From an uncultured Verrucomicrobiae bacterium (GTDB lineage Bacteria; Verrucomicrobiota; Verrucomicrobiia; Chthoniobacterales; JAFAMB01), in contig CAWEXO010000009.1 in NCBI GenBank assembly GCA_963813025.1, positions 32,001-96,000 on the forward strand: DNA of 64,000 nt, written 5' to 3'. The notes under the pieces were generated by a model. That model made no database searches and was not told the DNA's origin. It saw only the letters and a list, made by a program, of their open reading frames with translations. Position 1 is the first letter of the stretch. Every line of letters begins with the position of its first letter. Below, piece after piece: positions 17,138 through 41,797 of the stretch. The position numbers and the translations under genes were made by a program.

Positions 17138-17203
17138 ACAGGTGAAGAATTGTTTGCGCCAAGATTTAGAGCTTCGCTCTCAATATCAGTGGTTTTTGGG
17201 TCG

Positions 17204-17330
17204 GTAGGGCGATCCGCCTTTGCGGATGAGCCTTCGGCCCGACTCGTTTTGAGCCGGACGCTGGAGTTGCCACCTCCAGCGCCCGGCTCAAACAAGTTCT
17301 CGCCAAGGCTCGAATAAATTTTCGCCCTAC
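17204..17330. repeat. REPIN-like element, REP family C (unoccupied IS110-A target)
   Basis: GTAGGGCGA...TCGCCCTAC termini with internal palindrome TTTGAGCCGGACGCTGGAG/CTCCAGCGCCCGGCTCAAA. Homologous to 35078-35090 joined to 37148-37258. Confidence 0.9.
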
Positions 17331-17387
17331 CGGCACAGCTCCGACACCAAGTTTCTGGGCCGATATTTCTGTTGGGTCTTAGGTGCT

Positions 17388-34974: not shown

Positions 34975-35016
34975 TTTGCGGAGGAGAGCATACAGAGTGG
35001 AGCAGGTGAACAGCAA

Positions 35017-35061
35017 GTGTCAGTGCTGCTAGTGCCAGTGTCAGTGCTAGTGCCAGTGTCA
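35017..35061 (-). repeat. Hexamer microsatellite (GCACTA/G family)
   Basis: GTGTCAGTGCTGCTAGTGCCAGTGTCAGTGCTAGTGCCAGTGTCA. Confidence 0.85.
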
Positions 35062-35105
35062 ACAACGTTTAAATGGCCCTGTGCCGGTAGATACGGTCTT
35101 GGATG

Positions 35106-35400
35106 TCAAGGGCATTGGTTTAAGGAATGGCGGGCCAGGTTAGGGTTGTAGGGTTGTTGGTGAGAGAGAACACCGAAGGCGATGTGCAGGAGTTTTCGCA
35201 TGACGGCACCGCGGATAGCCAGGGAGTGGAGCTTGCGCGACTCGAGACCTGCGGCCCATTGCTGGATGGGTTTGCACCAGCGGCGAGCAACGGCGGCCGG
35301 CAAATAGAGTGCTTTGCGCAGGAAAGCGTTGCCGATTTTGCACAGGGTGGTTTTGCCGTAGAGCGAGACACCGGAACGGAATTCAGAAGGAGTCAGCCCA
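35106..35400 (-). pseudogene. C-terminal fragment of IS110 recombinase
   Basis: GLTPSEFRSG (catalytic-Ser loop), KIGNAFLRKALYLPA and AVMRKLLHIAFGVL. The N-terminal DEDD domain is absent on both sides of the IS3. Confidence 0.9.
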
Positions 35401-35443
35401 TGTACTTGCCCCGAAAAAACGGACTCGAAATATGATCGGTTGG

Positions 35444-36481
35444 TTAGCTTAGTTTCTCGTGGGTTGCAAGGCAGAAGGCTGCACTTCGGGCAAGGTCGCA
35501 ATCCGGCATAAACGGCAGCCTTCCCGCGCTTTCGCGCGGGCCCCTGCCATTTATTCCGTTTGCTCGTTTGCCCTTCGTTTCACCTTCTGCGGAAGGGGTA
35601 GCCATCACTTTTTCCTTCGAAAAAGTTGTTCTCTGTTTCTGTTGGTAAGCCGCTTCGTATTGGCGGGGCGTTTGATATCCTAACGCGCTGTGGAGACGTT
35701 TGTTGTTGTAGTAGACCTCGATGTATTCGAAGATGGTACTCCGGGCTTGAGCCTTGGAAGCGAAGCAGTTGGTCACCGGAAAACATTCGGTTTTTAACGT
35801 ACTGAAAAAGGCTTCCATCTTGGCGTTGTCATAGCAATTGCCGGCGCCACTCATGCTCTGGCAGGCTTGGATGACCTCCAGCGGTTTGCGCACTGCTTGG
35901 CTGGTATACTGACAGCCCCGATCGGTGTGAAAATATAGCCCCGGTGGTGGTTGGCGCAGCACCAGGGCGTTGTGGAGCGCTCTGACCACCAGACTGGCCT
36001 CCAGGCTCTCGGCCAGCTTCCAGCCCACCACCCGGCGACTAAAGAGGTCCAGAATAATCGCCAGATAAAGCCAGCCTTCGGCCGTCGCGACATAGGTGAT
36101 ATCACTCAGCCAAATCTGATCTGGCCCCTCGGAGACAAGCTCCGCAATCCGATTGGGTTCGGCCTCTTGGCCAGCCACGGTTGTCCGGGGACGAAAAGCA
36201 CGTTTTTTCCGAGCCATCAGCTTCTGCTCCCGCATGAGCCGAGCGACCCGATTCTTCCCCACTCGCCGGCCGGCAGCGCGCAAAGCCAAGGTGACTCGTG
36301 GACTGCCGTAACGTTGCTCATTTTGCGCGAAGATTTCCTGAATCTCGCTGAGCAATTGAGCTTCTGCTCGGGCGCGCTGGGTGACTTCCCCTTTTTTCCA
36401 CTGGTAATACCCGCTGCGCGATACCCCAAGAGCGGCGCAACTTTCCTTGAGGCCATACTGAACCGAGAGCCCTTCAATCAT
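35444..36481 (-). CDS. IS3 transposase OrfB (DDE integrase core)
   Basis: YGSPRV, WLSDITYV, HTDRGCQY, DNAKMEAFFSTLKTE and YNNKRLHSALGY. Joined to OrfA by a -1 shift at the A7 run 36523-36529 (reads KKSDEHPGGRTESRYA-MIEG). Confidence 0.93.
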   Translation of the reverse strand: MIEGLSVQYGLKESCAALGVSRSGYYQWKKGEVTQRARAEAQLLSEIQEIFAQNEQRYGSPRVTLALRAAGRRVGKNRVARLMREQKLMARKKRAFRPRTTVAGQEAEPNRIAELVSEGPDQIWLSDITYVATAEGWLYLAIILDLFSRRVVGWKLAESLEASLVVRALHNALVLRQPPPGLYFHTDRGCQYTSQAVRKPLEVIQACQSMSGAGNCYDNAKMEAFFSTLKTECFPVTNCFASKAQARSTIFEYIEVYYNNKRLHSALGYQTPRQYEAAYQQKQRTTFSKEKVMATPSAEGETKGKRANGINGRGPRESAGRLPFMPDCDLARSAAFCLATHEKLS

Positions 36482-36809
36482 CGCATACCGGGATTCGGTT
36501 CTTCCCCCAGGATGCTCATCGCTTTTTTTAAGATTTCCCGTTGGCGTTTGAGATACTCAATCTCTTTGTGCTGCTGCCGAATCAGCTCCGCCATTTCTTC
36601 AGGACTTTTCATCTCCCCGTTGATCTCGGCGGGCACTTGCTGGCCCAGATACGCCTTTTTCCAGAGGTTTAAACTGTACGCGCTGACGTCCAGCTCCCGG
36701 GCCACTCGCCGCTGTGTTTTGCCGCTGTGGATGATCAGTTCCACCGCTTGGCGTTTGAATTCTTCCCCGTATCGACGGGCCATTTTACTCTTCTTCACGG
36801 TCTCGTTCA
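36478..36809 (-). CDS. IS3 transposase OrfA (HTH)
   Basis: RRYGEEFKRQAV..VARELDVS..LKRQREILKKA. Confidence 0.9.
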
Positions 36810-36911
36810 TTTTACTTTGAGTTCCCGTGTCCGCCAATTCGGGGGAGGTTCAGACAGGAATTCGCGTTGAATTGGTTCTTTGTTTGATGAAGCGCTTGGG
36901 CGCGCGCCTGC

Positions 36912-37112
36912 TGACAGAGCCTTGTGAACACGGGCTTATGTTCCAACCCTGTTTGGAACGGCCTAAGATACGGTACGGTCTTATGCAGGTGCGGCACGAG
37001 GAAGGGTGGACTAATCTACCGGACAGGTTCTACCGACCTTTGGGCGAGGCAGTTTTCCACCCTCCTCGGCCAAGTTCTTCACTTCCAGAGTTCCGCCCTT
37101 GCGGGCGGCTTT
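36912..37112 (-). ncRNA. Predicted bridge RNA of IS110 element A
   Basis: 5' hairpin, then a target loop (CCUCGCCCA 37049-37041; UCCGGUAG 37023-37016) closed by GAGGAGGGUGGA/UCCACCCUUCCUC, then a donor loop (ACCGUAUCU 36974-36966; ACAAG 36925-36921). Ends are approximate. Confidence 0.88.
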
Positions 37113-37147
37113 AAAAGGGAAAAAAATTTGGTGGGGCAAGGTACAAG

Positions 37148-37258
37148 GGCGAAAATTTATTTGAGCCGGATGCTGGAGTTGCCACCTCTAACGCCCGGCT
37201 CAAACAAGTTCTCGCCTGGCGCTCGTCCGCCAAGGCGGATCGCCCTACCGGCACAGGG
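37148..37258. repeat. Remainder of the family C REPIN split by IS110-A
   Basis: With 35078-35090 it forms CCCTGTGCCGGTAGGGCGA...TCGCCCTACCGGCACAGGG and has the same internal palindrome as 17204-17330. Confidence 0.88.
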
Positions 37259-37363
37259 CAAAGGAAGTGCGTCCACCCCTGAACCCGCGCGCCTCAAAAA
37301 AAGTAGTCGAAGCTCTAAGTCGCTCGACGCGCCGCCTGCCTCGGCGGCCACTAGCACTAGCAC

Positions 37364-38491
37364 TAGTGCCTAATTGCGTAAGTTAGTTATATGTATGGCG
37401 ACTTTCCCCTGATGTACCTGGGATTTGGTCCATTCGAAGGGAGCCGCATTGTTATTGTAGTTCTTGATGAAGGTGTCGATGGCGTTGCGCAGCTCTGCCA
37501 CGCTGGTGAAGTTTGCCCCCTGGAGGGCTTGGCGGCTCAAGATACTAAACCAGATCTCAATCTGGTTGAGCCAAGAAGCGTGGGTTGGAGTGAAATGAAA
37601 ATGCACATTGGGGTGAGCCTTCAACCAGCGATCTTGCTTTGGCTTATGGGTCGCAAGGTTGTCTAAGACCACATGAATTTCTTTGTCGAGATTTCCGGCA
37701 ACTACCTGGTTCATAAACTCCAGGAATTCCCGTCGGCGCTGGCGCCGGTAATGACCAGCCTGCACTTGGCCGCTGGCAATGTTGAGGGCGGCAAAGAGAG
37801 TGGAGGTGCCATGGCGCTTGTACTCGTGGCTAAAACCCGTCAGCGCCCTGCCATTGGGCAAGCGAATCCAACCTTGGGCTCTTTCCAGGGCTTGAATGGC
37901 TGGTTTTTCATCAATGGCCAAGATGAGCGCATTCTGGGGCGGATTGAGATAAAGACCGACAATGTCAGCGGCCTTGCGCACAAACTCCGGATCGGTGGAA
38001 ATGCACCAGCTGCGGCGCCGTTCCAATTCAATGCCTTGTTGGCGCAAAATGCGCCAGACTTGATCGGAGGAAACATCGGCCAGACTCTGCGCCAGCAGTC
38101 GCCCATTCCAGCGCCCGTAGCCCGCCGGTGGATCTTCATCCAGCAGCGCCAAGACCCGCTTGACCGTCATTTGATCATACTTGGCCGGCTTTCCACTGCG
38201 TGGCGCGTCTTCCAAGCCAGCCAGGCCTTGGCGCACAAAGCGCCGCCGCCATTTACTCACCGTCACCTCGGGAATGCGCAGGCTCTTGGCAATCGCACGT
38301 CCACTCAAGCCCGCTGCCGCCTTCAAGATAATCTGACTCCTGACCTTGAGCCGGTGTTCGACCCGTTGCGCTCGACTCCAACCCTCCAAGAGCTTGCGGT
38401 TTTCCACAGAAAGTTTGATGCGACCCGTTGCCATCCATCCAACAAATCATAATTTTTCATAAATATAAAGAACTAAAGCAACTAAGTACTA
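37364..38491 (-). mobile_element. IS630-family insertion sequence inside a hexamer microsatellite
   Basis: IRs TAGTGCCTAATTGCGTAAGTTAGTTAT / TAGTACTTAGTTGCTTTAGTTCTTTAT with TA duplicated in CTAG. The empty site reads CACTAGCACTAGCAC[TA]GCACTGACACTGAC. Confidence 0.92.
37370..38434 (-). CDS. IS630 transposase
   Basis: HTH region, IDEK, YKRHGT, VLDNLATHK and SWLNQIEIWF. Confidence 0.95.
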   Translation of the reverse strand: MATGRIKLSVENRKLLEGWSRAQRVEHRLKVRSQIILKAAAGLSGRAIAKSLRIPEVTVSKWRRRFVRQGLAGLEDAPRSGKPAKYDQMTVKRVLALLDEDPPAGYGRWNGRLLAQSLADVSSDQVWRILRQQGIELERRRSWCISTDPEFVRKAADIVGLYLNPPQNALILAIDEKPAIQALERAQGWIRLPNGRALTGFSHEYKRHGTSTLFAALNIASGQVQAGHYRRQRRREFLEFMNQVVAGNLDKEIHVVLDNLATHKPKQDRWLKAHPNVHFHFTPTHASWLNQIEIWFSILSRQALQGANFTSVAELRNAIDTFIKNYNNNAAPFEWTKSQVHQGKVAIHITNLRN

Positions 38492-41747: not shown

Positions 41748-41797
41748 GTCAATGCGGTAGGGCGAGAATTCAGAGACTGTCTCACAACCCCACGTTG

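What the first reader, a model, noticed from the sequence alone, without database searches (positions are those of the whole stretch)
35089..37147. IS621-like bridge RNA fully decodable, with its empty REP target present elsewhere in the window
Seen: donor guide ACCGUAUCU equals the element end ACCGTATCT (9/9), and ACAAG pairs with the other end CTTGT. Target guides CCUCGCCCA and UCCGGUAG specify TCGCC[CT]ACCGG. Removing the element gives ATAAATTTTCGCCCTACCGGCACAG, present verbatim at 17314-17338. Further unoccupied matches are at 37240-37251 (+), 17202-17212 (-) and 41755-41765 (-). Known: E. coli IS621 inserts at the CTAC end of REP sequences through its bridge RNA. Inference: a natural reprogramming of the same scaffold to a different REP family in a distant host.
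Basis: partly seen in the sequence, partly recalled or inferred. Interest (0 to 1): 0.85.

Follow-up and report, generated by a model that had tools for sequence, protein, structure and literature searches.

The report
Broken REP-targeting bridge-RNA insertion sequence
This is a crippled copy of an RNA-guided jumping gene whose guide RNA spells out both its own ends and the end of an abundant host repeat where all its sister copies sit, a habit already published for many relatives and seen here in one more bacterial group.

Summary
Observation confirmed with corrections. 37147-35089 (minus) is an IS110 element of the IS621 type. An IS3 has replaced 718 bp of it, including the first 239 codons of the recombinase. 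The genome holds seven intact copies (336 aa, 35% identical to IS621, DEDD and serine present). A covariance model built only from non-Verrucomicrobial bridge RNAs finds 37071-36908 as the best hit in the window (31.8 bits, next 11.5). The donor loop reads all 14 donor bases; the right target guide is 7 nt (CCGGUAG). The left target guide pairs at only 6 of 9 positions here, so 'fully decodable' overstates. All 12 right junctions read CT|ACCGG, against 95 of 249 empty repeat ends. The target is a GTAG-type REP doublet family that also flanks three RAYT-like genes. In four related genomes the right target guide changes with the flank. The 'empty target' at 17314 is one of 7 identical sibling repeats. 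Retargeting to other CTAC-ended repeats is already in Durrant et al. 2024 (ten such guide bins seen in a supplement), and this scan noted the same behaviour on another piece of this genome. Verdict: new member of a known kind.

The parts
35089..37147 (-). IS110-family (IS621-type) element from CT core to CT core, disrupted by an IS3; intact sister copies are 1324-1325 bp
   Evidence: Ends defined by 13 left and 12 right junctions in the genome
37141..37147 (-). Left CT core and right donor half TGTAC
   Evidence: IS621 has CT-TGTAT at the same place
37138..37143 (-). Candidate -10 box TACCTT, 17 bp from the right-end TTGACA in the circle junction (function inferred)
   Evidence: same spacing in IS621; promoter reconstitution described in PMC11208160
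36908..37071 (-). Bridge RNA gene, target-binding and donor-binding loops; the transcript probably starts near 37131 (inferred) and would include a hairpin at 37093-37108
   Evidence: Best hit of model R1 in the window, 31.8 bits, E about 5e-6; consensus fold of 7 relatives
37041..37049 (-). Left target guide CCUCGCCCA; pairs at positions 3-8 of this copy's target
37014..37022 (-). Right target guide CCGGUAG (7 of 7 pairs with CTACCGG) and handshake AU (pairs with donor bases 7 and 6)
36967..36974 (-). Left donor guide ACCGUAUC (8 of 8)
36919..36929 (-). Split right donor guide GU..ACAAG (7 of 7 with CTTGTAC) and handshake GC (G pairs with target base 7; C does not pair with base 6)
35401..36852 (-). 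Nested IS3-family element (OrfA 36478-36837, OrfB 35444-36481), without target duplication; 718 bp of the IS110 are missing at this place
   Evidence: two other copies in the genome have 3-bp duplications
35106..35399 (-). Remnant of the recombinase gene, residues 240-336 (holds the catalytic serine, lacks the start codon and the RuvC domain)
   Evidence: PF02371, E 3.5e-7; tblastn to intact copies; residue map
35089..35109 (-). Right end: candidate -35 box TTGACA (35109-35104), left donor half ACCGTAT (35097-35091), CT core
37148..37259 (.). Larger part of the interrupted REP doublet; its far end (37240-37251) is an unoccupied GGA-type end
35078..35088 (-). Outer end of the interrupted REP doublet (ACCGGCACAG...)
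17202..17338 (.). Empty sibling REP doublet; 17314-17338 equals the reconstructed pre-insertion site
41755..41765 (-). Single end of the same repeat family, mismatched at target position 14

Best explanation
An IS621-type IS110 element moves in this genome by bridge-RNA-guided recombination. Inferred from IS621: the excised circle joins the right-end TTGACA to the left-end TACCTT and transcribes the bridge RNA; its donor loop binds ACCGTAT-CT-TGTAC and its target loop binds (T)(Y)TCGCC-CT-ACCGG; the DEDD/serine recombinase exchanges strands at the CT core. Shown here: that target is the GTAG end of an abundant REP doublet family, every copy sits at the same base of it, and the guide sequences match both sites. 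The window copy later lost its recombinase through an IS3 insertion with adjacent deletion; it keeps both ends and the RNA gene and could move only with enzyme from an intact copy (inferred).
For: Seven intact copies, 99.1-99.7% identical to a reference copy, all with D10, E62, D104, D107, S248; NF033542 208 bits over a cut-off of 140; only PDB matches IS621 and ISCro4. Model R1 ranks the 13 copies with a left end and one fragment as its top 14 of 24 hits in the genome. 12 of 12 right junctions are CT|ACCGG against 95 of 249 empty ends, Fisher p 1.5e-5. Right target guide against flank, five genomes: CCGGUAG/ACCGG, ACGGUAG/ACCGT, UAGCUAG/ACCTK, CCCGGAG/CCGGG, CACAAAG/TTGTG; the true pairing is the best of 120 permutations. 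Donor base 14 changes with guide base 157 (C with G here, T with A in G023 and IS621). Two copies that share one internal deletion lie at different sites, which fits movement in trans.
Against: No transcript or circle was seen. The left target guide mismatches at position 1 in all 12 copies scored, at position 9 in all 12, and at position 2 in 6 of 9 type-A copies; across genomes a non-cognate left guide scores better on G000 flanks than the cognate one (6.4 against 5.3 of 7). In G006 the right guide has a C opposite target C11 in all 4 copies read, and scores only 3 of 5. CGG-ended repeats may simply be the best-kept subfamily, and the five genomes are kin, so both p-values overstate. The DBL handshake base 167 does not pair with target base 6.
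Confidence: 0.93

Rival explanations
1. Dual recognition: guide pairing is needed but weak on the left, and the hairpin of the REP doublet (or a protein bound to it) supplies the rest of the specificity, as reported for ISPpu10.
For: Left guide pairs at only 6-7 of 9 positions; the doublet folds into a long hairpin (-50.8 kcal/mol as DNA); none of the 8 GGA-type empty ends with a full TCGCCCTACCGG is of the kind occupied; target stem-loop gating is reported for ISPpu10 (bioRxiv 2026.03.19.712850, abstract).
Against: Several occupied sites lack the partner end within 130 bp and one has a non-repeat left flank; sequence at positions 3-14 alone accounts for the sites. This adds to the best explanation and does not replace it.
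Confidence: 0.25
2. The guide-like matches are relics: the element targets the repeat by protein-DNA recognition, and the left end carries pieces of target and end sequence picked up by recombination.
For: Two truncated copies are fused to repeat sequence inside the target loop (G000 C4:5894-5754; L036), so such exchanges occur.
Against: The matches lie at the positions of the IS621 guides in an independent model, the right guides are reverse complements and one is split, and they change base by base with the flanks in relatives.
Confidence: 0.03
3. 35401-37146 is an IS3-based composite unit, since the left end TGTACCTTGCCCC resembles the IS3 right inverted repeat TGTACTTGCCCC.
For: The 12-13 base likeness is in the sequence.
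Against: The same left end stands on 12 other copies that hold no IS3, and the IS3 occurs twice elsewhere with its own ends and duplications.
Confidence: 0.01

Closest known systems
IS621 of Escherichia coli and its bridge RNA (Durrant et al. 2024, PMC11208160; Hiraizumi et al. 2024, PMC11208158)
   Same: RuvC-DEDD plus serine recombinase; long left end with the RNA; CT core; donor 12 of 14 bases identical; guide layout, AU handshake, junction promoter spacing; insertion at the CT of the CTAC end of a REP.
   Different: 35% protein identity; left target guide and REP family differ; natural 7-nt right target guide (IS621 has 4, extendable to 7); left guide unpaired at position 9; longer left end (about 295 against about 190 bases); wedge Y/L/A in place of Y/M/M.
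ISCro4 / IS622 (PDB 9t56; bioRxiv 2025.05.14.653916)
   Same: Second PDB match, E 1.3e-44; 14-bp target and donor model (passages).
   Different: 88% identical to IS621 by that paper, so equally distant from this element; its target was not compared here.
Natural IS110 guide bins of Durrant et al. 2024, supplementary file 5 (such as TTCGCCCCTAC, GCCCACCCTAC, GTCGCTCCTAC) and natural target_seq4027 (ATTCGCCCTAC)
   Same: Other orthologues whose target loops read different CTAC-ended repeats; one natural target shares TTCGCCCTAC with this one.
   Different: This element's donor junction was not found in the supplement text held (files 3 and 4 cut, file 2 unreadable).
ISPpu9, ISPpu10, ISPa11, ISRm19 (REP-targeting IS110 elements; Tobes and Pareja 2006, PMC1525189)
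   Same: All copies in a genome interrupt one REP family at one base (passages).
   Different: Other hosts and other positions in the REP (after base 9 or 6).
GTAG-tagged REPs, REP dimers and RAYT (Di Nocera et al. 2013, PMC3733652; TnpA-REP, PDB 4er8)
   Same: GTAG at the outer ends of inverted dimers; flanking a RAYT-like gene; GTAG repeats are known from a verrucomicrobium.
   Different: Could not tell whether this family is one of GTAG-1 to -24 (the consensus figure is not held; the motif was absent from main text and 4 supplements). Three RAYT-like copies, below the NCBIfam cut-off.

Membership tests
IS110 family, IS110 group (IS621-type bridge recombinase) | N-terminal RuvC-like DEDD domain (PF01548) and C-terminal serine domain (PF02371) | tested here: met
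   Met in 7 intact copies; the window copy keeps only the C-terminal 97 residues
IS110 family, IS110 group (IS621-type bridge recombinase) | Short shared core at both ends, no long terminal inverted repeats, precise reconstruction of the empty site | tested here: met
   CT at both ends of 12 copies; reconstructed 25-mer found 7 times empty
IS110 family, IS110 group (IS621-type bridge recombinase) | Long left non-coding end that fits a bridge-RNA model | tested here: met
   Model from 9 non-Verrucomicrobial elements incl. IS621: 31.8 bits, next hit 11.5. The model is crude (13 pairs, rough E-values) and is not the published one; Rfam gave no match
IS110 family, IS110 group (IS621-type bridge recombinase) | Guides complementary to donor and target, covarying with them across orthologues | tested here: met
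   Donor 8/8 and 7/7, right target 7/7, left target 6/9; covariation clear for the right target guide and donor base 14, weaker for the left target guide
IS110 family, IS110 group (IS621-type bridge recombinase) | Promoter rebuilt at the circle junction | tested here: inconclusive
   TTGACA-17-TACCTT in sequence; activity not tested
IS110 family, IS110 group (IS621-type bridge recombinase) | Bridge RNA expressed, bound by the recombinase and needed for recombination | not testable with these tools
   Needs RNA data or a bench assay
GTAG-type REP / REPIN | Abundant short repeat with terminal GTAG, often in inverted dimers | tested here: met
   249 GTAGGGCGA ends; 68 inward-facing doublets, most 105-113 bp apart
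GTAG-type REP / REPIN | Palindromic stem after the GTAG tag | tested here: inconclusive
   Single arms fold weakly (-2.6 to -3.3 kcal/mol), whole doublets strongly (-48 to -51); no shuffle control
GTAG-type REP / REPIN | Associated RAYT gene flanked by the repeat | tested here: inconclusive
   Three near-identical genes flanked on both sides; the one scanned gives NF047646 E 6.8e-19, 68 bits, under the cut-off of 80, no Pfam hit, weak match to TnpA-REP, E 0.043

The most novel reading that the evidence does not exclude
In this family of Verrucomicrobiota the target loop of one IS110 lineage tracks each host's own repeat: G000's guide reads the CGG variant (75 sites in G000), G006's the CTK variant (12 sites in G006, none in G000), and G023's a different repeat not ended by CTAC (17 sites in G023, none in four other genomes). 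The element would then be a parasite that co-evolves, base by base through its RNA, with a RAYT-REP system, down to insertions in the doublets beside two of three RAYT genes, and a natural source of a 7-nt right guide at 35% identity to IS621.
Probability: 0.45. Interest if true: 0.4.

Novelty: new member of a known kind. Interest (0 to 1): 0.2.

Why it matters
It confirms the bridge-RNA rules in a phylum far from E. coli with natural compensatory changes, including the 7-nt right target guide and the split right donor guide. It offers one more distant, apparently recently active orthologue (seven intact copies) for recombinase screens. It does not change the model: REP targeting by IS110 elements and guide-target concordance across orthologues are published.

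Tried and rejected
Sequencing runs: no RNA holder listed; four DNA contig sets laid on an intact copy showed no circle junction, and contigs cannot show absence. Rfam: no family matched the intact locus. Pfam PF01797 found three other Y1 genes, none flanked by this repeat; two lie among a second GTAG family; the candidate RAYT came only from a weak tblastn. Selection at target position 2: C in 6 of 13 occupied against 12 of 95 empty sites (p 0.008), but only 3 of 9 in the copies whose guide has C there, so left open. One 12-mer hit (C13:611528) was dropped from the right-junction count because it is not an element end by blastn; with it left in, 12 of 13, p 1.2e-4. G039 and G004 were left out of the permutation test because no target loop was held. 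The tree had no outgroup (the one tried gave no alignment) and cannot order events; CTAC targeting needs 4 changes, 76 of 500 shuffles as low. IS3 composite reading rejected. Single-sequence folding of the RNA was unconvincing alone (z -2.0). Look-up of earlier findings by sequence was empty.

Full report
What is there. Read on the minus strand, the window shows TTTCGCC | CT TGTACC... at 37147 and ...ACCGTAT CT | ACCGG at 35089. Between them lie 295 bases of left end, a 1452-bp IS3-family element (35401-36852; Pfam and NCBIfam) and 312 bases that encode residues 240-336 of an IS110 recombinase. The IS3 has no target duplication here, while its two other copies have 3-bp duplications, and 718 bp of the IS110 are missing: an adjacent deletion is the likely cause (inference). 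The genome (4.4 Mb, 16 contigs, 80% complete) holds 13 left junctions and 12 true right junctions. Seven copies are intact, 1324-1325 bp, 336 aa, 99.1-99.7% identical to the reference copy. One has an in-frame deletion, three are deleted copies of a variant B, one is a left half of a variant C, and one more fragment holds only part of the RNA gene. Of 22 related loci in GTDB genomes, 18 are from Verrucomicrobiota, among them all those over 45% identity.

Recombinase. The intact protein matches NF033542 (208 bits, cut-off 140), PF01548 and PF02371; its only PDB matches are IS621 and ISCro4. It is 35% identical to IS621 and keeps D11, E60, D102, D105 and S241 as D10, E62, D104, D107 and S248, with A61, G63, N84 and Y264 also kept.

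Bridge RNA. I built a covariance model from nine elements of other phyla, IS621 among them. With filters off, its best of 25 hits in the window is 37071-36908 on the minus strand, 31.8 bits, next 11.5; in the genome its top 14 of 24 hits are the 13 left ends and the fragment. The model is crude and its E-values rough. An alignment of seven Verrucomicrobial left ends folds into long stems around the guide loops; 14 of 44 pairs show a two-sided change, with a covariation term near zero. On IS621 numbering (PMC11208158, sections 7, 8, 11) the guides are: left target CCUCGCCCA, right target CCGGUAG, handshake AU, left donor ACCGUAUC, right donor GU..ACAAG, handshake GC. The donor loop pairs with all 14 donor bases, and the right target guide with 7 of 7. 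The left target guide pairs at 6 of 9 positions in this copy and at 5-7 of 9 in the other type-A copies. If the conserved linker G is counted as in IS621, the guide may simply be one base shorter at its 5' end (inference). The circle junction reads TTGACA-17-TACCTT, the spacing seen in IS621.

Target. The flanks are one end of a repeat family: TCGCCCTAC occurs 249 times empty (45 expected by a fifth-order Markov model) and TCGCCCTACCGG 95 times (2.2 expected); 68 pairs face inwards as doublets, most 105-113 bp apart. The ends begin with GTAG, as the GTAG REP superfamily does (PMC3733652, passages). Three near-identical genes with an HUH motif are flanked on both sides by the repeat; the one scanned matches the RAYT model at E 6.8e-19 but under its cut-off. 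All 12 right junctions continue ACCGG, against 95 of 249 empty ends (p 1.5e-5), which is what a 7-nt right guide predicts; the subfamily structure of the repeat could inflate this.

Natural covariation. Seven of 43 genomes of the family hold a relative at E <= 1e-40. From those loci: G005 ACGGUAG with ACCGT (1 copy); G028 CCCGGAG with CCGGG (1); G023 CACAAAG with TTGTG (6), with a matching left guide (7-8 of 9 Watson-Crick pairs) and donor TGTAT read by AU in place of GU; G006 UAGCUAG with ACCTG or ACCTT (6 flanks, 4 guides), where position 13 follows the guide but position 11 is a C-C mismatch. The true pairing of guides and flanks is the best of 120 permutations; five kin genomes are a small, non-independent set. 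The left guide is less telling: G006's guide fits G000's flanks better than G000's own. Empty sites of each predicted kind are enriched in the matching host: TTCGCCCTACCGG 75 in G000, 6 in G006, 2 in G005; TTCGCCCTACCTK 12 in G006, 2 in G005, 0 in G000; TYTGCGCCTTTGTG 17 in G023 and 0 in the other four. The shorter TYTCGCCCTACC has 199, 103, 59, 40 and 10 sites in the five genomes G000, G006, G039, G005, G004, and 0 and 1 in G023 and G028; several genomes rich in it gave no element.

Mechanism. Shown: ends, core, catalytic residues, guide positions, pairing, site preference, covariation. Inferred from IS621 (PMC11208160, sections 5 and 9 and passages): circle formation, promoter, RNA expression, strand exchange. 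Newer abstracts differ on excision (copy-and-paste and half matches, bioRxiv 2026.08.31.748434; weak expression from the integrated locus, PMC13626964); nothing here bears on that. The window copy cannot make enzyme. Two variant-B copies are 99.4% identical, share one internal deletion and sit at different repeat sites, which suggests that deleted copies move in trans; the window copy could too.

What is known. IS110 elements in REPs: PMC1525189 (passages); Choi et al. 2003 seen only as a citation. Durrant et al. report guide-target concordance across orthologues with zero to two mismatches, and longer natural right guides. Their supplementary file 5 lists at least ten natural target-loop bins ending in CTAC, with targets that look like different REP families (30 of 34 places shown), and one natural target with TTCGCCCTAC. 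This element's own junction was not found in the supplement text held (files 3 and 4 cut, file 2 unreadable), none of the ten Verrucomicrobial rows of their tree table looked like this protein by eye, and a search for IS110, Verrucomicrobi and bridge RNA found no paper (related searches). An unrooted tree of 16 proteins puts the five Verrucomicrobial ones on a separate, fully supported long branch and cannot say whether CTAC targeting is ancestral or repeated. Earlier notes of this scan report the same behaviour on another piece of this genome and in other genomes; they are unchecked and not counted as support.

Verdict. A real, well-supported new member of a known kind; interest 0.2.

Noticed in passing
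G000 C14:454609-455073 (-), C15:124761-125225 (-), C11:605018-605458 (-); L071-L073: Three near-identical RAYT-like genes flanked by the GTAGGGCGA repeat (the C11 copy frameshifted near its end); two have an IS110 copy in the doublet just downstream. RAYTs are usually single-copy (PMC5581495, start of abstract). Missed by PF01797.
   Followed up: partly
G000 C4:5894-5754 (L003); L036: Truncated bridge-RNA genes fused to the repeat inside the target loop; in C4 the join is at CTTCGCC, shared by an inner arm of the doublet and the left target guide. Microhomology deletion or a half-match reaction on the element's own guide DNA.
   Followed up: no
window 37031-37036 (-): The hairpin between the two target guides holds CGGUAG, a second copy of most of the right guide; not kept in G023 or G028.
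   Followed up: no
G000 C9:218159, C4:5894; G006 loci L033, L039, L042, L045: Right target guide with C in place of the G that should pair with target C11, while the targets keep C11.
   Followed up: partly
L007, L008 (G000 C5:185083-185694, C14:330723-331089): A second GTAG family (GTAGCGCCGAC, 48 ends) flanks another Y1/RAYT-like gene; no copy of this IS110 sits in it.
   Followed up: partly
window 37370-38434 (-): Intact IS630 transposase next door, with about 20 near-identical copies in the genome, among short GCACTAG/CACTGAC repeats that also occur at 35010-35070.
   Followed up: no
G000, several contigs: At least three other multicopy IS110 types in this genome (40 PF01548 matches).
   Followed up: no
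L074 (G000 C13:20953-21419): A fourth, more distant RAYT-like gene flanked by related GTAGGG-starting palindromes.
   Followed up: no
window 37134-37145 (-) and 35401-35412 (+): The IS110 left end resembles the right inverted repeat of the nested IS3 over 12-13 bases; probably chance.
   Followed up: yes
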